Origin: a virus
Taxonomy: Duplodnaviria > Heunggongvirae > Uroviricota > Caudoviricetes
Reading direction: 5' to 3' (one strand)
Length of the DNA stretch: 64,000 nt
IMG/VR virus record: IMGVR_UViG_3300029841_000009
Location: 1-64,000 of that record
The position numbers and the translations under genes are program-made. The notes under the pieces are model-generated. The model saw nothing but the letters and a program-made list of their open reading frames with translations, was not told where the DNA came from and did not search any database. Below are positions 6,554 through 36,372 of the stretch, one piece after another; the stretch's first letter is position 1; every line of letters starts with the position of its first letter.

Positions 6554-9024
6554 CAGAATCCCCCAACAGTAAGGCGAGGAATAACGGCAAGAACAGACAG
6601 CGGCAACGGATCAAGCTGACGGATTTTTACACGTCCGTTTTTGCCCCAGTTACTGTCCAGTTTCACTTCTACTTTTCCGGTAGCATCATCAACAGGATCA
6701 TCGTAGAACTCGAATTCACGCTGTGGATATTCGTACCATTTACCGCCGGGCGTAGTCGCCCAGATGCCGCGACTGGCATTCACAACCAGAGTAACGGACG
6801 GGATCACCTGTTTTTTGTCCAGCAGCGTTTCCTGTCCGTTAATGTTGATATCCAGTGTTTCGAATTCAGCAGTTATTGGCAGGCCGATGTGCACTACAGC
6901 CCCCGGTGATTCCAGCGTGACGGCACCTCCGGAAACCACTTTCTGTGGTTCCACGTTCGCATCAGAGAGAATGTTTACGGTCTGGCCTTCAAGATGAGAC
7001 AGGCCTCCAAATGTCCGGCGCGCCATCTGCCAGTTCGTGGTGGCCACATTCCTGAGGGATGGCGGGACGTTCCTGTTAGCACGAACCACTACAGCGGTAT
7101 TGCTGGTTACAGAAATAATGTCGCAACGTAATTCTTTTGACACCTCATCGCCAGTATCAGGATCAGTTCCGGTATAAGGGAACTGTAGTTGCGCGCCGAC
7201 ATCACTACTGGTGAAGTACGCACCACCAGAAACACTGATTGTATATTCCGCGCGGTAATCCCATTCGCCAGAACCACCAGTGATGATCATCGTTCTGTCA
7301 GACGTATTTCTTCCATCATAGCTAAGGCCAGAATCAACAAAGAAAGCATCTTCATCGCTGGTAAATAAACGGCTGGACAGTCGCTCGATGTATCTCACTG
7401 TTTGCCCGTTAACGGTTCGGTTAACGACGAAATACACCGCATCTTCATTGCCTTCGCTGATACTGCATGTGCTTTCATATTTTCCGGTACTGGATTGTGG
7501 TGCCCATGCAAAAACCTGCTGATCACGCAAATAGGTCATCACCAGTAATTTACCGTCATCACGGATGCAGAAGGCGCTGGAGTAAGGGACTATTGAGAAG
7601 CACCAGTCAACAATGCTGTGCTTCTGAAAAAGATGATTGGCAAGGATAGTAAGGTCGTTCCCCTGATAGCCGTCAACATCGAATGAGTAGGCCAGATCAC
7701 GGACAACACTGCCTTTCTCCTGGACGAACAGAGCAATATTCGCCACGGCAATTGGTGGGACATTGCTCGAGCCATTTGATCCCTGAGAGCTGAATGCAAA
7801 TGATGATGGGGTAAGCACTTTGTTCTGGTCGCCAGTGATGACGTACTCACCTCCGGAAGTCAGCGCCACCAGCGAACCAACATCAATCAGGTGGCGGATC
7901 TCATTAACCTGACGCCCGGCATAGGTGTAGATAATTCTGTCGTCATCCTGCGTAGGATTGCTTTTGCCAAAATCCTTATAATCCCCGGTACGGCTGGCCC
8001 AGATAGTCTGAGGAAACGCAGTCGATGCGGCGAAGTAAAGACGTTGTTGATAATAAACAACAGTGCCAGGATAACCATTAACACTGTTCCAGGCATATTT
8101 AGCCCATTTATAGCTGGCATTATCCTCGCCAACTACCTGCGAAGGGATATAGGAAATCACCTCGGCAGTTGCAGTAGTTCCATTTGCAGCAGAGATACGG
8201 GCAATGCCAAAACCACTGTGCAGATACTCCCACTCAATGCCGGTATCATCATCACCGGATCCGCCCCAGCCATCCCATGATGTGCCTTCTGTATGCGAAG
8301 GGCGCAAAGTGCCTGTTTTGCCTACTGTAACGGCGCGATAGTAGTTACTGTCTGCACGGCGAATATCGCCAATTGACGTACTCTTACTGGTTTCCCATAC
8401 CGGCACAGAATCCACTGCAGGCTGTTCCAGATAGAACAATTTGCCTACCTGCTCCGCGCCAAAAATAGAGGCGCTTGCCGTTAACGTAATTGTCCCGGTG
8501 CTGGCGCTGGCATAAACCGTCACTGACTCGTCAATATTGATATCTTCAAATGGTCCGTTCTTCGTTACCACATCAACCAGTTGCCAGTTGTCATGCGCAT
8601 AGCGACGCAACTCTTTCGGCGGGTATGCCGGATGAACAAGCGTAAGCACGTCGGCGCTTTGCGTGAATTTAATTCGGAACAGATCGGCTTCAGTATATGG
8701 CGTGGCAATTTCATAAATAACATTGCTGCTGTTCAGCACCAACGCACCATCTTTGATAACGCGCATGTACTGGTGTCCGAACTCCAGAGCATAGGTCTGA
8801 ACCGTCGAGAACTGGAACGGGATCAGGCGGCATTTCCGATTTGGGTATTTGGCGGCACCGACAAAACGCGTACCTGGTCGATTCTCAACGCCGCCATACT
8901 GCCGCACGATAAAGTTATCGCACTTGCGCAATGCCACCTGGTACTTCGCCATGTCAATACGCCCGTACAACGACGGTCCAATCTCACCACCGGCAAAGCT
9001 GGGCTGGATCCAACTGATAGCCAT
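6553..9024 (-). CDS. tail tubular protein B-like (nozzle)
   Basis: 823 aa, immediately downstream of the adaptor-like gene as in the T7 gp11-gp12 order; size and position based. Confidence 0.45.
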   Translation of the reverse strand: MAISWIQPSFAGGEIGPSLYGRIDMAKYQVALRKCDNFIVRQYGGVENRPGTRFVGAAKYPNRKCRLIPFQFSTVQTYALEFGHQYMRVIKDGALVLNSSNVIYEIATPYTEADLFRIKFTQSADVLTLVHPAYPPKELRRYAHDNWQLVDVVTKNGPFEDINIDESVTVYASASTGTITLTASASIFGAEQVGKLFYLEQPAVDSVPVWETSKSTSIGDIRRADSNYYRAVTVGKTGTLRPSHTEGTSWDGWGGSGDDDTGIEWEYLHSGFGIARISAANGTTATAEVISYIPSQVVGEDNASYKWAKYAWNSVNGYPGTVVYYQQRLYFAASTAFPQTIWASRTGDYKDFGKSNPTQDDDRIIYTYAGRQVNEIRHLIDVGSLVALTSGGEYVITGDQNKVLTPSSFAFSSQGSNGSSNVPPIAVANIALFVQEKGSVVRDLAYSFDVDGYQGNDLTILANHLFQKHSIVDWCFSIVPYSSAFCIRDDGKLLVMTYLRDQQVFAWAPQSSTGKYESTCSISEGNEDAVYFVVNRTVNGQTVRYIERLSSRLFTSDEDAFFVDSGLSYDGRNTSDRTMIITGGSGEWDYRAEYTISVSGGAYFTSSDVGAQLQFPYTGTDPDTGDEVSKELRCDIISVTSNTAVVVRANRNVPPSLRNVATTNWQMARRTFGGLSHLEGQTVNILSDANVEPQKVVSGGAVTLESPGAVVHIGLPITAEFETLDININGQETLLDKKQVIPSVTLVVNASRGIWATTPGGKWYEYPQREFEFYDDPVDDATGKVEVKLDSNWGKNGRVKIRQLDPLPLSVLAVIPRLTVGGF

Positions 9025-24273: not shown

Positions 24274-24785
24274 TGATGGCCCCCGTCATTTCTGGTGCTT
24301 TTCACCGTGCGGCTTCTTAAAAACCTGCCATCACGAACAACAGACACTTCTCGTTTACCCAACCTCATTTCACGGCGGTAACATTCAGAAAATGCCTCGT
24401 CCGGCATCATATAAATGCGACGCTTCGCCTCCGTATCCAGAAGGGAACGGCTTGGGGTTACATATAAAAACGACTCATCAATAGGGACAAAACCACGAGC
24501 AAGAATTGCTGGCAGAATGCCAGGAAGAACGCAGAAAACAGCTCCACGATGCAGCAACATCTGGTACTCCATGACCTCCGTTATCCCCGTGACTACTGTT
24601 ACGGTGTCACGTCTGTTACGGCTGGCAACCAGTCGCTGCACACGTCCAATTTTCTGATCTACAGATAGATGTTTGCTATCGTTATCAATATGATCGATAG
24701 CAAATCCTTTAATCGTTTGATCAAGGTAGTGCACCACCTTCGATTGAATCTGGTGATTATCACCAAAGAAGGCCAGAATCATCAT
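24270..24785 (-). CDS. hypothetical early-region protein
   Basis: 171-aa ORF coupled to the Cro-like gene. Confidence 0.4.
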   Translation of the reverse strand: MMILAFFGDNHQIQSKVVHYLDQTIKGFAIDHIDNDSKHLSVDQKIGRVQRLVASRNRRDTVTVVTGITEVMEYQMLLHRGAVFCVLPGILPAILARGFVPIDESFLYVTPSRSLLDTEAKRRIYMMPDEAFSECYRREMRLGKREVSVVRDGRFLRSRTVKSTRNDGGHQ

Positions 24786-25276
24786 TCCTCAAGCCTCCCA
24801 AGTGCTGAACGCCGGGCGTTGCTAATCTCCTTATGAATCAGCTCGATATCGCTGGAATCTTTATTCTTAAGCTCCAGCACGGTAATCGCATCACGAACCT
24901 CTGAAACGGTTACGTGTGAGTGTTTCCAGCGAGCAATGAATCGCGGACCGCGTAGATTGCAACGCTCCGCAGGCATCCCCAACTCAGAGAAAACCGCTTT
25001 CAGCCTTGATAAGCAGTTAACAGGGAGATTCCCTTTGATCTTGTTCTGCCGAACCGATGTGCCATCGCTACGCTGGCGCTGACGTTCGGCAAAATCTGCC
25101 GCCCATTGCTGGACGTTAATCCGGCCTTCCGAATACGCCACCAGCAGCGTCAGGTTATCCGCACGAGGGAATCTCTCGAAGCGATACCAGGCACCAATCA
25201 GTGATGACGTAAAGCCAAACTTTCTGGCAACACCAATTTGGCCTCCATTTTCGTCAACCCACTCCTGAAAGGTCAT
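24782..25276 (-). CDS. Cro/YdaS-like HTH regulator with C-terminal extension
   Basis: 164 aa, divergent from the CI gene; N-terminal helix-turn-helix-like segment (GVARKFGFTSSLIGAWYRFERFP). Confidence 0.5.
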   Translation of the reverse strand: MTFQEWVDENGGQIGVARKFGFTSSLIGAWYRFERFPRADNLTLLVAYSEGRINVQQWAADFAERQRQRSDGTSVRQNKIKGNLPVNCLSRLKAVFSELGMPAERCNLRGPRFIARWKHSHVTVSEVRDAITVLELKNKDSSDIELIHKEISNARRSALGRLEE

Positions 25277-25289
25277 TTAACGAACTCCA

Positions 25290-25415
25290 GTTAAAACCAC
25301 GATATGTGGTATTAAAACCACATATCGTGAGTTTTTCAATGGGCAAAACAAAAAATAACCTTCTATTTGTGGTCCACCTCTCGTCTTACCATGTGAAAAC
25401 CACTAAATGTGGTAA
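25290..25415. promoter_or_regulatory. divergent operator/promoter region (OR/OL-like) with ACCAC-N5-GTGGT operators
   Basis: ACCACGATATGTGGT (perfect palindrome), ACCACATATCGTGAG and ACCACTAAATGTGGT between the Cro-like and CI genes. Confidence 0.6.
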
Positions 25416-25450
25416 TGTATAAATAACCCACCATTCACGATTGATGAGAC

Positions 25451-26107
25451 ATGAAAAGCAACGACGAGAACATCAAGAAAGAAATAGGTCTGCGCATTCA
25501 GACTCTACGGAAACAATCCGGCATGACTGCCGGAGATCTCCAGCAAGTCACTGGAATAGGCTTAAGCACCTTGCAGAACTATGAGGCCGGATTAAGACAA
25601 CCATCTATACCTGCCATCAAGAAAATCGCGCACGCCCTGAAAGCATCAGCGCCTTATATCGCGTGCTTAACAGATAACCCGTTCCCACCCCAGAATACTA
25701 ACGCTCCTGTTATTCCTGGGCTTGTAGCTATAAAAAATGACATAGCATCGCACGCCGGAGAAAAGCCAGTGCTGGCGATAGAACAGGAGATTCTACGAAG
25801 CAAGAACATCAACCCATCGTCTCTGTCAGTTCTCCAGAGCAACGATGAGTTAATGTCACCAACAATATCCCCTGGCTCCCAAGTCCTGATTGATACAGAC
25901 GATACAGAGATTCATGAGGGGATCTATGCCCTTGAAGACAGAAATGGCCTGGTTGTTTTGAGGCACTGTAGAGTCATACCGGGTGACAATGCTGTTATGC
26001 TGTCAACCGAAAGGGATGCTGAAATGAACACTAAGCATCTGAATAACGAGGAATTTAAGCGTTATAAAGTTCTGGGCCGCGTAGTTAGTGTTGTCAACTG
26101 GTTATGA
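25451..26107 (+). CDS. cI: CI-type repressor (HTH_XRE N-terminal domain plus S24 LexA-like autopeptidase domain)
   Basis: 218 aa; N-terminal HTH (LRKQSGMTAGDLQQVTGIGLSTLQNYEAG), C-terminal Ser/Lys dyad context (LMSPT ... RYKVLGRVV). Confidence 0.8.
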   Translation: MKSNDENIKKEIGLRIQTLRKQSGMTAGDLQQVTGIGLSTLQNYEAGLRQPSIPAIKKIAHALKASAPYIACLTDNPFPPQNTNAPVIPGLVAIKNDIASHAGEKPVLAIEQEILRSKNINPSSLSVLQSNDELMSPTISPGSQVLIDTDDTEIHEGIYALEDRNGLVVLRHCRVIPGDNAVMLSTERDAEMNTKHLNNEEFKRYKVLGRVVSVVNWL

Positions 26108-26199
26108 TACACAGCACGGCGAAAGCCGTGCATTTCTACGCTCAAAAAAACCACATTTTGTGGTTTTGACAACATGTGAAAGTATAAAAGAGGCTACGC

Positions 26200-26574
26200 A
26201 TGGAATTACATACAGCCAATAAAAACGAAACTCTGATCACTGCTGGAATCGAAATCCAAGCGTTGAACATAGCGATTGAGTGTATGTTATGCCAAATCAT
26301 TGATAATGAGAAAGATATCGACTGGATATCATCTACCCTTCATCTTGCTTACGAGCAAAAAGCCTGCCTCAAAACAGCCTTACAATACGATGTGCCTTCT
26401 GTATCAAAGCTGTGCCAGTCATTGATGGCATATAACAGAGCTATCATTTCTGTATGCCTCATGATTCTCGATGAGAATACCCCTCTTAGCGACCGCTCAG
26501 AAGCAGCTCTAACCCTCTCACGTAAACAGCGACAGCTAGCAAATCAACTGATATCAACGATAGCTGACCTCTGA
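26200..26574 (+). CDS. hypothetical protein downstream of cI
   Basis: 124-aa ORF preceded by an ACCACATTTTGTGGT operator-like palindrome; followed by a hairpin. Confidence 0.4.
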   Translation: MELHTANKNETLITAGIEIQALNIAIECMLCQIIDNEKDIDWISSTLHLAYEQKACLKTALQYDVPSVSKLCQSLMAYNRAIISVCLMILDENTPLSDRSEAALTLSRKQRQLANQLISTIADL

Positions 26575-28043: not shown

Positions 28044-28539
28044 TGTATGGCCCTTACAGGCCGTTTCACGGCATCCCCACCGACGAAAACAACGCGAGAG
28101 CAAGCACGGCTGCTTGTGCTTGCATGTACGGCAACGGAGAATCCTCCCCTAAAGTCGGTGCCCGGGTGCGAATCGGCGGGAAGGTCCACAGGTATTTTAC
28201 GATTATTTTAAGATTAGTTATAGGAAAGAAATTAAACGAAAAAACTCGTTTATTTTCACAAAATCAGTAACCTACCCACAATCTGTGAGTTTGCAGGCAC
28301 AACAAGAACCACAATTTTATGAAGCATAATAGTGGACTATTATTACCTTTTGGGTAAAATTAACTTGCTGCTTGTGCTTGCGTGGTTGTTTATACAACAA
28401 CGTAATGCTGAAAGGACCGCGAATCCGATCAGCACGAAAGAACCGTCCTCAATAGGGCGGTTTTTTTGTTTCTGCCTACCAATAAACCCACACTATGTGG
28501 TTGTCTCTGTTAAAATCCCGCCGTATTGACATAAATGCG

Positions 28540-28640
28540 CCATTGGTGGACACTTTCCGAGCCGTAGCAAAATCTACGGTCGGGATTGGAACCCCGATAA
28601 TCATCATGGCGCATACCGCGTTAGCGGTTTTTTTATGCGT
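28540..28640 (+). ncRNA. candidate structured regulatory RNA upstream of the antirepressor operon (immI/c4-like antisense RNA)
   Basis: ORF-free; successive hairpins (CCGTAG-caaaat-CTACGG; CGGG-ATTGGAA-CCCG) ending in ACCGC-GTTA-GCGGT plus T7; loop ATTGGAA is complementary to the downstream loop GTTCCAAC. Confidence 0.35.
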
Positions 28641-28799
28641 AAAGCACTGCTACACCCAAATTATGGTGGGGCGTGCGGGGGAGTCGTAAGACTCGCCGGA
28701 TTCCATGGTGACCGGTAGTTCCAACCCTGTACGTCTCACCACCCAATGATTGGAACCAGACGGTGGTGAGTATCCTTAACCTTTAAGGGAACTATCACC

Positions 28800-28991
28800 A
28801 TGACAAACCTACCCCATGACTATTACGTCAACCTCGTAAAGATCCTTCTCAAGAAAGCCTCATACGCCGATAAATTCCGCCTGGCTGAAATCATCGAGCG
28901 CGAAGCTATGCGCATCGCCAGCAACGATAACGCTGTTTCTGTCGCAAAAATCTCCCTCGTAACCAAAGTAGTTATGGGAGGTGCAAAATGA
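28800..28991 (+). CDS. small ORF translationally coupled to the antirepressor (icd-like position)
   Basis: 63 aa; stop overlaps the antirepressor ATG. Confidence 0.4.
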   Translation: MTNLPHDYYVNLVKILLKKASYADKFRLAEIIEREAMRIASNDNAVSVAKISLVTKVVMGGAK

Positions 28992-30169
28992 AAACGCTTC
29001 CGACCGTTAACACCCTACAGCCTATCCTGCATAACCAGCTCCCCGTTATCACTACTGAACTACTGGCGCAATTGTATGGAACCGAGCGCCAACGTCTGAC
29101 AAACAATTTCAATAGAAACAAGGAACGTTTTATAGAAGGTAAACACTTTTTTAGGATAGAAGGTAAAGAGTTACGAGAGTTGAAGAACAAAAACTCTTTA
29201 AGAGTTCCTGTGAGAGTAGTTAACGAACCATCTTTAAGAGGGTTACAAATTCCCCCGAAAGTTCGCTCCCTCATCCTCTGGACAGAACGCGGGGCTGCAC
29301 GTCACGCCAAAATGCTTGAAACTAACCAAGCGTGGGATGTGTTCGAACGGCTGGAAGACAGCTACTTCAACCAGAACGCACAAACGGCCGCGACCGTAAC
29401 CGTCTCACCAAACAATGCTCGTGAGGTTGTCGATACGCTCAACGCCAAACCAATGTATTACGTTAAGGTGTGCAACAACGAGCCACTCACAACCTCAGCC
29501 GATGTTGCCCAAGCATTCAGCACCACAAACAATTCCATCGTTATGGCCATCGATGCGTTACGCATTCCTCGCACGGCTGCGGCGCGTCACTTCTTTAAAG
29601 AACAACGACCGCTGGAAGGAAGCGACCGCGAAATAACAATCTATCGCATGACAAAAGACGGATTTACCTTGCTCATGGAAAGTATCGACGGTCCAGGCGT
29701 GAAGGATATCAAGCTGGCCTACATTGAAGCCTTTAACGCTATCAGCAGCGTGTTAAAGGCAGAATACGAGCGAATGCTATACAACCGACTGTATCAGGAA
29801 ACAAAGATTATCCGAACGGCAACAGAACATCATCGGCTATTAACGGAACCAAACTACCGCAAGACACTAATCAAAGAGTTTGACAAGGCGACGGAGAAAA
29901 CTAAAGCGGCACTAAATCTACCAACAATGACTAAAGATGATGTGATATCAGCCTTACTTCTTGATCTGCTCAGAAACGCCAGAGCACTTATCAGTTTTGA
30001 CGAAAACCTGAATCCTCAGCTCAAGCTACTACCACCGACAGGCAAAGTAGTCGACCAAGCAGATCACAACAGCATACTCAGCGTACTGGATGCAAACCTG
30101 CCAGCCAGGACACTACAGGAGCTGATAAAAATATCTGCGGATAAACTGGCCGCAGGTGCAAAACCATAA
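28988..30169 (+). CDS. ant: phage antirepressor (AntA/ORF6N-like N-terminal domain)
   Basis: 393 aa; N-terminal VITTELLAQLYGTERQRLTNNFNRNKERFIEGKHFFRIEGKELREL resembles antirepressor N-domains; sits downstream of the RNA-like region. Confidence 0.55.
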   Translation: MKTLPTVNTLQPILHNQLPVITTELLAQLYGTERQRLTNNFNRNKERFIEGKHFFRIEGKELRELKNKNSLRVPVRVVNEPSLRGLQIPPKVRSLILWTERGAARHAKMLETNQAWDVFERLEDSYFNQNAQTAATVTVSPNNAREVVDTLNAKPMYYVKVCNNEPLTTSADVAQAFSTTNNSIVMAIDALRIPRTAAARHFFKEQRPLEGSDREITIYRMTKDGFTLLMESIDGPGVKDIKLAYIEAFNAISSVLKAEYERMLYNRLYQETKIIRTATEHHRLLTEPNYRKTLIKEFDKATEKTKAALNLPTMTKDDVISALLLDLLRNARALISFDENLNPQLKLLPPTGKVVDQADHNSILSVLDANLPARTLQELIKISADKLAAGAKP

Positions 30170-31474: not shown

Positions 31475-31747
31475 TCATTTGATCCCTTGTTCCAATTCTG
31501 CCGACACTTTAACCTTTTCCCATACAAGGGTTTGCAGCCTTAACAGAATCGCATCTTTATCAAGGTGTGAAAGATCCTTAACCATATCGTCAAACGACAG
31601 AACGCGAATGGCCATCTCAATGACCCTCGGCGGCTCCCCCTTCTCATATCGCTTATATGTAGCCAACGATATCCCAAACTCTTCGGCTGCTCGCTCCTGC
31701 GTCCAGTTCATCCCACGACGCCATAATTTCAATTCGTAACCCGTCAT
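31475..31747 (-). CDS. HTH XRE-family transcriptional regulator
   Basis: 90 aa with LKLWRRGMNWTQERAAEEFGISLATYKRYEKG helix-turn-helix. Confidence 0.55.
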   Translation of the reverse strand: MTGYELKLWRRGMNWTQERAAEEFGISLATYKRYEKGEPPRVIEMAIRVLSFDDMVKDLSHLDKDAILLRLQTLVWEKVKVSAELEQGIK

Positions 31748-35028: not shown

Positions 35029-35877
35029 TTAATGTTGGAGTGATTTCCAGGTCTTTCTTAACCTGTTATAACGCTGCTCAACGAGGGATCGTAAATATGC
35101 AAGGTCAGCACCAGGATACATGCCATCAGCAAATTCCTGACTAACCTCTCTGGTGATTTGATGACGAAGTTCGGCCTCTCCCTTTTCCCGAACAAGACGC
35201 GCAGCTCTCTCCGCTGCTTTCTGTTTTGCCTTTATCTCTCTGGCCGTCTTCCTCTGACGCCATACATTCTCCATCTGCTCCTGAATAACAATACGCTTAT
35301 AATCAGCCTCCGTTATCGCTTTTTTAAGCCGTTCGCTATTCTTCGCATTGAAGTAATTAAGTTTCTGGCTAACCGCACGTCTCCATGCTTGTTCAGTAAT
35401 ACCAACGGTTTCCAGCAGTTGATCACGAATCTCTATTTTCGCTGGCCAATACTGTTTATTCACCCGATCCCAGCGACGTTCATAATCAATAAAACCTAAC
35501 GCTTTCAGTTGCGACAACGCCCTTGTACAGCGCGTTATAGACTTGTTCCCAGCTTCGGATACGGTAGACAGGCCGCAAAAATCAGCCAACGCCTCAGCAC
35601 TAGCCAGAACCCGCTTAGAAATGATGTTTACATGGTGCAAAATCGCAGCGATCACAGCATTAATCGCCCGACGACGATGCTCGTTTATCCGGCGCTTCCG
35701 CTCTGACGGTTGATTAACGTAGAACGCAACCTCACACGTAAGATCACGCCCATTAATGCGCTGTAAAGCATCAGATAACACCAGCGGCAGCTTGTGCGTA
35801 TGGTGCTTTGGAGGCTGGAACTCCGGCGACAAATTACAAACGTAAGCTGAACGTAGAGACGGCATTGGTCTATCCAT
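35029..35877 (-). CDS. repA: IncFII-type replication initiator RepA (RepA1-like)
   Basis: 282 aa from the internal Met (MDRPMPSLR); SITRCTRALSQLKALGFIDYE and an Arg/Lys-rich C-terminus closely match R100/R1 RepA1 as recalled from memory. Confidence 0.75.
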   Translation of the reverse strand: MDRPMPSLRSAYVCNLSPEFQPPKHHTHKLPLVLSDALQRINGRDLTCEVAFYVNQPSERKRRINEHRRRAINAVIAAILHHVNIISKRVLASAEALADFCGLSTVSEAGNKSITRCTRALSQLKALGFIDYERRWDRVNKQYWPAKIEIRDQLLETVGITEQAWRRAVSQKLNYFNAKNSERLKKAITEADYKRIVIQEQMENVWRQRKTAREIKAKQKAAERAARLVREKGEAELRHQITREVSQEFADGMYPGADLAYLRSLVEQRYNRLRKTWKSLQH

Positions 35878-35964
35878 ATGTTCGCTCTTGCGTCCACGGA
35901 AAACCAACGTATAATGGGAGTTGTCGAGGCGCCCATGGATTGTTGTTGTTGGTTTTCCGTGGAT

Positions 35965-36005
35965 GTCGCAAGAAGCCCGCAGATTTATCTGCGGGCTTTT
36001 TGTTT
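35965..36005 (+). terminator. rho-independent terminator on the strand antisense to the repA leader (CopA-like antisense RNA 3' end)
   Basis: AAGCCCGCAGA-TTTA-TCTGCGGGCTT followed by TTTTGTTT about 100 nt upstream of the repA start, on the opposite strand. Confidence 0.45.
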
Positions 36006-36372
36006 CCATATCTGGTCACTTTCCAACCAGACACCCACAATCATAACCACGTTACGTGGTTTTAAGAGAACTCTACCACAACACTTTCGGTCATGCACGA
36101 AGTCTCTCACTGATCGAACGATAATCCACCAGTAAAAGGATCTAAATTGGATCTCGTTTTGCGAGCATCATACTACTGGCCTAACTCCAGTCAATGATTC
36201 CCAGCCAGAAACCTGCGGTAAACTCATCGTTCAGCAATATGCTGTCCGGCTTCAAAGATAAGGTGACATCATCCCTTAACAGCGCGGCCAGCTCCGTTAA
36301 AGGGTTGTTTTGACTTAATGCAAAACCGCTAATAAACATATTGGCGGTTTTGTTCCTTAAATCATCTTGCCT

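What the first reader, a model, noticed from the sequence alone, without database searches (positions are those of the whole stretch)
25290..26170. ACCAC-N5-GTGGT operator family at the cI/cro switch, upstream of the next ORF and near the antirepressor
Three sites lie between the divergent Cro-like and CI genes, a fourth (ACCACATTTTGTGGT) sits upstream of the ORF at 26200, and a fifth related palindrome lies at about 28487 upstream of the ant operon. This implies the CI repressor directly controls more than the lytic promoter, possibly including ant.
Basis: seen in the sequence. Interest (0 to 1): 0.45.

Follow-up and report, generated by a model that had tools for sequence, protein, structure and literature searches.

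The report
Repressor operator set of a phage-plasmid
A 15-bp palindrome (ACCAC-N5-GTGGT) marks six conserved control points of a common E. coli phage-plasmid: the lysis/lysogeny switch, the gene after the repressor, the antirepressor operon and the plasmid replication gene. One repressor therefore probably couples phage induction to plasmid copy control, a design already known from phages N15 and P1.

Summary
ACCAC-N5-GTGGT occurs perfectly 6 times in the window, against 0.02-0.06 expected. A 21-bp matrix built only from the three switch sites ranks 26150, 36046 and 28487 as the best other hits (20-28 bits; next best 15.5; 0.005 hits of 20 bits or more expected).

Window 19.1-64 kb is a ~48-kb circular E. 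coli phage-plasmid with P2-like tail genes, an IncFII RepA and a ParA. Relatives from Salmonella, Citrobacter, Enterobacter and Yokenella carry orthologous sites. The arms vary in 4 of 60 columns, the spacers in 21 of 30 and the flanks in 86 of 144.

- Two sites bracket the -10 of the leftward (lytic) promoter.
- One lies over the cI promoter region.
- One follows the cI terminator, ahead of orf124.
- One lies 24 nt upstream of the isrK/C4/icd/ant promoter.

The perfect matches at 6935 (in a foreign phiV10-like tail gene) and 43603 (intragenic, not conserved) are chance.

The most likely mechanism is a CI-type repressor regulon, with CI apparently non-cleavable. This parallels N15 CB (OR plus repA operators) and P1 C1 (c4-icd-ant). 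No binding was tested. It is a new member of a known kind.

The parts
24782..25276 (-). First gene of the leftward (early/lytic) operon, 164 aa. It occupies the 'Cro' position; its function is unproven.
   Evidence: ORF. It matches phrog_7452 (function unknown) and has no Pfam, NCBIfam or PDB hit. The AF2 model is poor (pLDDT 57) but shows five N-terminal helices. It is syntenic in all relatives.
25296..25310 (.). O1, ACCACGATATGTGGT. It lies just downstream of the -10 of the leftward promoter and covers the expected start site.
   Evidence: The orthologues keep the arms.
25311..25339 (-). Inferred leftward (lytic) promoter: -35 TTGAAA (25339-25334), a 17-nt spacer that is O2 plus 2 nt, and -10 TTTAAT (25316-25311).
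   Evidence: Read from the sequence. TTGnnn and TTWAAT are conserved in five taxa. The scan tool did not report it because the -10 has T at position 2.
25317..25331 (.). O2, ACCACATATCGTGAG (2 mismatches). It fills the spacer of the leftward promoter, 21 bp centre-to-centre from O1.
   Evidence: 34-bp palindrome with O1. The orthologues read ACCAC-N5-GTGGG.
25359..25373 (.). O3', a variant site: CCTTCTATTTGTGGT, which is ACCAC-N5-GAAGG on the minus strand.
   Evidence: It is the only such match in the window. It is conserved in all five taxa. The same variant recurs upstream of the lysis genes in relatives.
25399..25413 (.). O4, ACCACTAAATGTGGT. It lies 5 nt upstream of the TATAAA (25419-25424) that precedes cI, so it is a likely autoregulatory site.
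25451..26107 (+). cI-type repressor, 218 aa: an N-terminal HTH_3 domain plus a degenerate S24-like C-terminal domain.
   Evidence: Pfam gives HTH_3 at 4.5e-11 and Peptidase_S24 at 20 bits, below the 23.3 cut-off. It matches phrog_4, transcriptional repressor. In the alignment with LexA and lambda CI, the catalytic Ser aligns with Leu and no Ala-Gly is present.
26114..26131 (+). Hairpin after cI (GCACGGC-GAAA-GCCGTGC), terminator-like.
   Evidence: Sequence. It is conserved, with a better T-run, in relatives.
26150..26164 (.). O-post, ACCACATTTTGTGGT, between the cI hairpin and orf124. It is the best match to the switch matrix (27.8 bits).
   Evidence: The arms are invariant and the spacer varies (ATTTT, GCTTT, GATTT, GTTAC, GTTGC, GTTTC) in relatives.
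26200..26574 (+). orf124, a four-helix-bundle protein of unknown function. It forms its own unit, closed by a hairpin after 26574.
   Evidence: Matches phrog_7632. AF2 pLDDT is 90.7, with only generic bundle matches. It is 47-60% identical in relatives whose Cro-position protein is 74% identical.
28487..28501 (.). O-ant, CCCACACTATGTGGT (1 mismatch), 24 nt upstream of the -35 of the isrK/C4/icd/ant promoter.
   Evidence: 20.3 bits. The conserved block begins exactly here in E. coli variants that carry three different upstream insertions. The orthologous ACCACAATGYGTGAT sits at the same distance in Citrobacter, Enterobacter and Yokenella, and is absent in Salmonella.
28508..28516 (+). Extended -10-like element, TGTTAAAAT. 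It is a possible upstream promoter whose -35 and spacer region is O-ant.
   Evidence: Sequence. TGGTAGATT lies within 2 nt of this position in L013-L015, and nothing comparable is present in the Salmonella relative that lacks O-ant. This is an inference.
28526..28554 (+). Main promoter of the ant operon: TTGACA-17-GACACT. The predicted start at about 28561 matches the isrK model start.
   Evidence: Sequence. It is conserved in all relatives, including Salmonella. The Rfam isrK hit starts at 28561.
28561..28746 (+). isrK-like RNA (28561-28634) and C4 antisense RNA (28659-28746) in the ant operon leader.
   Evidence: Rfam gathering-level hits RF01394 (70.2 bits) and RF01695 (84.3 bits).
28800..30169 (+). 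A 63-aa ORF in the icd position (28800-28991) and the antirepressor (28988-30169; ORF6N plus Rha domains).
   Evidence: Pfam gives ORF6N at 2e-21 and Phage_pRha at 3.8e-12. Several PHROG anti-repressor families match.
36046..36060 (.). O-rep, ACCACGTAACGTGGT as read on the repA (minus) strand. It lies upstream of the repA leader and abuts TATGAT.
   Evidence: 25.4 bits. It is orthologous in Salmonella, Citrobacter and Enterobacter with spacers GTTGT and GATGT.
36167..36194 (-). Conserved strong promoter-like site, TTGACT-16-TATGAT, about 100 nt upstream of O-rep.
   Evidence: It is conserved in Salmonella, Citrobacter, Enterobacter and Serratia.
35029..36009 (-). repA (IncFII family). The real start is probably 35877. 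The stretch 35878-36009 is a leader with a conserved GC hairpin.
   Evidence: Pfam IncFII_repA at 1.3e-43 covers residues 53-319, and NCBIfam RepA_IncFII_LM scores 1.5e-68. Weak leader or terminator-like hits lie on the opposite strand at 35892-36005. RepA is annotated shorter in relatives.

Best explanation
The ACCAC-N5-GTGGT palindromes (fuller form AAA-ACCAC-N5-GTGGT-TTT) are the operators of the element's CI-type repressor, encoded at 25451-26107, and probably also of the protein encoded by the divergent leftward gene.

The element is a ~48-kb circular phage-plasmid. In the plasmid-prophage state, CI dimers would act at these places:
1. O1 and O2, which bracket the -10 of the leftward early promoter and shut off lytic genes. 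The sites are shown; repression is inferred.
2. O4, next to the -10-like box of cI, for negative autoregulation, with the weak O3' in between. Inferred.
3. O-post, behind the cI terminator. It would repress the small orf124 unit and could also serve as a distal partner for looping. Inferred.
4. O-ant, upstream of the isrK/C4/icd/ant operon. It would remove an upstream promoter's contribution, while the constitutive TTGACA promoter keeps making the RNAs that block ant translation. Inferred by analogy with P1.
5. O-rep, in front of the IncFII repA leader. It would hold RepA synthesis down in lysogeny and release it on induction. Inferred by analogy with N15.

CI has lost the S24 catalytic serine, so inactivation is expected to go through the antirepressor. 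That would make ant derepression self-reinforcing.
For: Statistics. There are 6 perfect sites against 0.02 expected. A matrix trained only on the three switch sites finds 26150, 36046 and 28487 as the three best other hits, with a 5-bit gap to the background and 0.005 hits of 20 bits or more expected. The complete plasmid L002 gives the same six sites and the Salmonella plasmid L003 gives five.

Position. All six sites are intergenic and lie next to promoter-like elements or behind terminators.

Conservation. In Salmonella, Citrobacter, Enterobacter and Yokenella relatives (CI 66% identical in Salmonella, Cro-position protein 74-76%), orthologous sites exist at the same places. Arm columns vary in 4 of 60, spacers in 21 of 30 and flanks in 86 of 144 (Fisher 6e-10 and 1.5e-13). 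The few arm changes break the palindrome instead of compensating, which argues for protein recognition and not an RNA stem.

O-ant. It marks the exact left edge of the conserved ant control block behind three unrelated cargo insertions.

The repressor. CI has an HTH_3 domain and matches PHROG repressor families. Its recognition-helix region (STLQNYE) is kept even in the Serratia relative (CI 36% identical), which also has AACCAC half-sites at the switch, behind cI and before repA.

Precedents. N15 CB binds three OR sites and two sites at the repA promoter (PMC4488713). P1 C1 represses the c4-icd-ant operon (PMC8198154).
Against: - No binding or expression data exist for this family. No paper was found.
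- O-ant is imperfect in every clade, lies about 67 bp upstream of the main promoter's start, and is missing from the Salmonella relative, which nevertheless keeps that promoter.
- O-rep and O-post do not overlap a textbook -35/-10 pair. The best promoter at repA is about 100 nt upstream, so O-rep may act only as a roadblock.
- In the Serratia relative only half-sites are recognisable at the distal loci.
- No relative with a clearly different operator sequence was found, so co-variation of CI specificity with all the sites could not be tested.
- Two perfect matches (6935, 43603) have to be written off as chance, although fewer than 0.1-0.2 are expected.
Confidence: 0.8

Rival explanations
1. 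The distal palindromes are bound mainly for DNA looping. They would be auxiliary sites that raise repression at the switch, like lambda OL-OR or the flanking sites of phage 186, and would not regulate the adjacent genes.
For: O-post lies only 750-850 bp from the switch, behind a terminator, and has the highest matrix score. Neither O-post nor O-rep overlaps a canonical -35/-10 pair. O1 and O2 are spaced 21 bp apart, which suggests cooperative binding.
Against: O-rep is 10.7 kb and O-ant 3.1 kb from the switch. Each keeps a fixed distance to local promoter or leader elements across genera. N15 and P1 show local repression at the equivalent loci (PMC4488713, PMC8198154). The two roles are not mutually exclusive.
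Confidence: 0.1
2. The sites are recognised by another protein and not by CI. Candidates are the 164-aa product of the leftward gene acting alone, another small HTH protein of the element, or a host factor.
For: The binder's identity is inferred only from the sites clustering between the divergent genes. The element encodes other HTH proteins, for example at 31475-31747 and the HigA-like antitoxin. The variant class ACCAC-N5-GAAGG (O3' and the lysis-upstream site in relatives) could reflect a second protein.
Against: Palindromic operators that flank the -10 of the promoter facing a CI-type HTH repressor gene are the canonical arrangement. The arms are kept wherever the CI recognition-helix region is kept. 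In known switches CI and Cro share operators, so Cro binding would complement CI binding and not replace it.
Confidence: 0.07
3. The palindromes act at the RNA level as small hairpins or terminators, or they are chance or compositional repeats.
For: The terminator scan flags 25297-25330 and 28488-28500 as hairpin plus T-run. With their A/T flanks the sites can form 8-bp stems followed by T residues. Two perfect copies (6935, 43603) do look like chance.
Against: Arm sequence, not pairing, is what is conserved. None of the four variable arm columns is compensated. The spacing is strictly 5, while other spacings give 0-2 matches each. The expected number of matrix hits of 20 bits or more is 0.005 against 6 observed. 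The stems are short and GC-poor, and the sites occur in both orientations relative to transcription.
Confidence: 0.03

Closest known systems
Phage-plasmid N15: CB repressor with three OR operators in immB and two OL operators at the repA promoter
   Same: Both are plasmid prophages. In both, the prophage repressor's operators lie between divergent repressor and cro genes and also in front of the plasmid replication gene, so the repressor sets copy number as well as immunity (PMC4488713). Both have a separate anti-immunity locus with a small RNA. This element also has dispersed AT-rich partition-type repeats; that N15's partition sites are dispersed is from memory.
   Different: N15 is a linear siphovirus with protelomerase and its own RepA type. 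This element is circular, with P2-like contractile tail genes, an IncFII-type RepA and an antisense-RNA-style leader. It has one operator at repA, not two. The operator sequence is unrelated as far as I know. Here cI is followed by orf124 and parA.
Phage P1: C1 repressor with many dispersed operators, including the one controlling the immI operon c4-icd-ant1/2
   Same: The antirepressor operon has the same layout: a processed or antisense RNA (Rfam C4 hit), a small ORF in the icd position, then ant. Transcription is repressed by the primary repressor, on top of RNA-level control (PMC8198154). One repressor has dispersed operators around a plasmid prophage.
   Different: P1 C1 is not an HTH_3/S24-like protein, and its operators are asymmetric 17-mers (from memory). 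P1's plasmid replicon is not C1-controlled; its lytic replicon is (from memory). Here an isrK-like RNA precedes C4, as in Gifsy-1 (PMC4825925).
Lambda-type CI/Cro switch (OR1-3, PR/PRM)
   Same: Divergent repressor and early genes. Several palindromic operators of graded quality overlap the lytic promoter and the repressor promoter. The repressor has two domains, an HTH and an S24-like fold.
   Different: There are four sites in 118 bp with 21/42/40-bp spacing. No site is in the activating position (-42) for the cI promoter. The catalytic Ser of the S24 domain is absent. The leftward gene product is 164 aa and has no recognisable Cro domain.
IncFII (R1/R100) replication control: CopB repression of PrepA plus CopA antisense RNA
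   Same: Both have an IncFII-family RepA and a long structured leader with a conserved GC hairpin, with antisense-strand terminator-like signals. A protein-binding site sits at a promoter-proximal position upstream of the leader, below a stronger distal promoter.
   Different: No copB gene lies between the distal promoter and the leader (about 100 nt). The phage repressor's operator occupies that position, so the phage repressor, not the plasmid's own copy-number sensor, would gate transcription. This is an inference.

Membership tests
CI/Cro-type phage immunity switch | Divergently transcribed repressor and early-operon genes separated by a short intergenic region | tested here: met
   cI lies at 25451-26107 (+) and the 164-aa gene at 24782-25276 (-), with a 174-bp gap. 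The arrangement is syntenic in six relatives.
CI/Cro-type phage immunity switch | Multiple related palindromic operators overlapping the two promoters | tested here: met
   O1, O2, O3' and O4 are present. O2 fills the spacer and O1 the start region of TTGAAA-17-TTTAAT. O4 sits next to the cI -10-like box. The promoters are predicted, not mapped.
CI/Cro-type phage immunity switch | The leftward first gene encodes a Cro-type DNA-binding protein that shares the operators | tested here: inconclusive
   There is no Pfam, NCBIfam or PDB hit. The AF2 model has pLDDT 57 and shows five N-terminal helices only.
CI/Cro-type phage immunity switch | The repressor binds the operators | not testable with these tools
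   This needs EMSA, footprinting or ChIP.
LexA/lambda-CI type self-cleaving S24 repressor | Catalytic Ser-Lys dyad and an Ala-Gly (or Cys-Gly) cleavage site | tested here: not met
The Pfam S24 score is below the cut-off.
N15-type coupling of prophage repressor to plasmid replication | An operator of the immunity repressor at or near the promoter of the plasmid replication initiator gene | tested here: met
   A perfect site at 36046-36060 lies upstream of the repA leader. It scores 25.4 bits with the switch-only matrix and is conserved in three other genera. Its overlap with an active promoter is not established.
N15-type coupling of prophage repressor to plasmid replication | Linear plasmid with protelomerase and telomeres | tested here: not met
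   The closest complete records are circular 44-49 kb plasmids or phage genomes with no protelomerase annotated.
P1 immI-type antirepressor operon | C4-family antisense RNA followed by a small ORF and an antirepressor gene in one operon | tested here: met
   Rfam C4 scores 84.3 bits at 28659-28746. It is followed by a 63-aa ORF and an ORF6N/Rha antirepressor. The 63-aa ORF has no demonstrated homology to Icd.
P1 immI-type antirepressor operon | An operator of the primary repressor at a promoter of the operon | tested here: inconclusive
   A 1-mismatch site lies 24 nt upstream of the -35 of the main promoter, over the -35/spacer of a putative extended -10 promoter. It is conserved in four of five enterobacterial clades and absent in Salmonella.
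IncFII replicon | IncFII-family RepA | tested here: met
   PF02387 scores 1.3e-43 and NF040977 scores 1.5e-68.
IncFII replicon | CopA-type antisense RNA and CopB repressor | tested here: inconclusive
   No Rfam CopA hit was found. Only weak terminator or leader-like hits lie on the antisense strand at 35892-36005. No copB-sized ORF lies upstream.

The most novel reading that the evidence does not exclude
In this widespread enterobacterial phage-plasmid family, a non-cleavable CI has taken over the CopB-like position of an IncFII replicon and also gates the RNA-controlled antirepressor operon. A single operator code would then link three things: immunity, plasmid copy number, and a self-reinforcing Ant-driven induction loop.

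A second, conserved half-site variant (ACCAC-N5-GAAGG, at O3' and at the late/lysis promoter of relatives) would define a separate affinity class, or a second binding protein, that times late gene expression.
Probability: 0.3. Interest if true: 0.55.

Novelty: new member of a known kind. Interest (0 to 1): 0.35.

Why it matters
These ~48-kb phage-plasmids turned up in 62 PLSDB plasmid records and in about 70 of 5,426 complete E. coli genomes as near full-length matches. Related elements occur in Salmonella, Klebsiella, Citrobacter, Enterobacter and Yokenella, and close relatives are infectious Yersinia phages. Their regulation appears undescribed.

A defined operator set gives a testable wiring diagram for how such elements switch between plasmid maintenance and lytic growth. 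It predicts that inactivating the repressor simultaneously releases lytic genes, RepA and the antirepressor.

It also adds an independent, non-N15 example of a prophage repressor placed in front of a plasmid replication gene, here on an IncFII-type replicon. The 21-bp consensus is directly usable for annotating the family.

Tried and rejected
1. Co-variation test. I looked for relatives whose CI has a different specificity, so that all sites should change together. The Salmonella, Citrobacter, Enterobacter and Yokenella relatives keep the same arms. The Serratia relative (CI 36% identical) keeps AACCAC half-sites with degenerate partners. The test therefore became a conservation footprint and not a co-variation test.
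2. A viral-contig scan with orf124 returned only close relatives.
3. LexA control of ant. No SOS box lies near 28400-28800, and CTGT-N8-ACAG occurs at background frequency.
4. Function of the 164-aa protein. Pfam, NCBIfam, PHROGs and PDB sequence searches were uninformative, and the AF2 model was too poor for a fold search.
5. Function of orf124. The model is a confident four-helix bundle, but only generic or designed bundles match.
6. CopA-like RNA at repA. There is no Rfam family hit above noise.
7. The perfect sites at 6935 and 43603 were rejected as operators. 6935 lies inside a tail gene of an unrelated phiV10/TL-2011b-like module. 43603 lies inside the late control D gene and is mutated in a 99%-identical plasmid. 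Both score below the gap with the flank-aware matrix.
8. Literature searches for this phage-plasmid family or the Yersinia phages vB_YpM_39, 41 and 44 found nothing.
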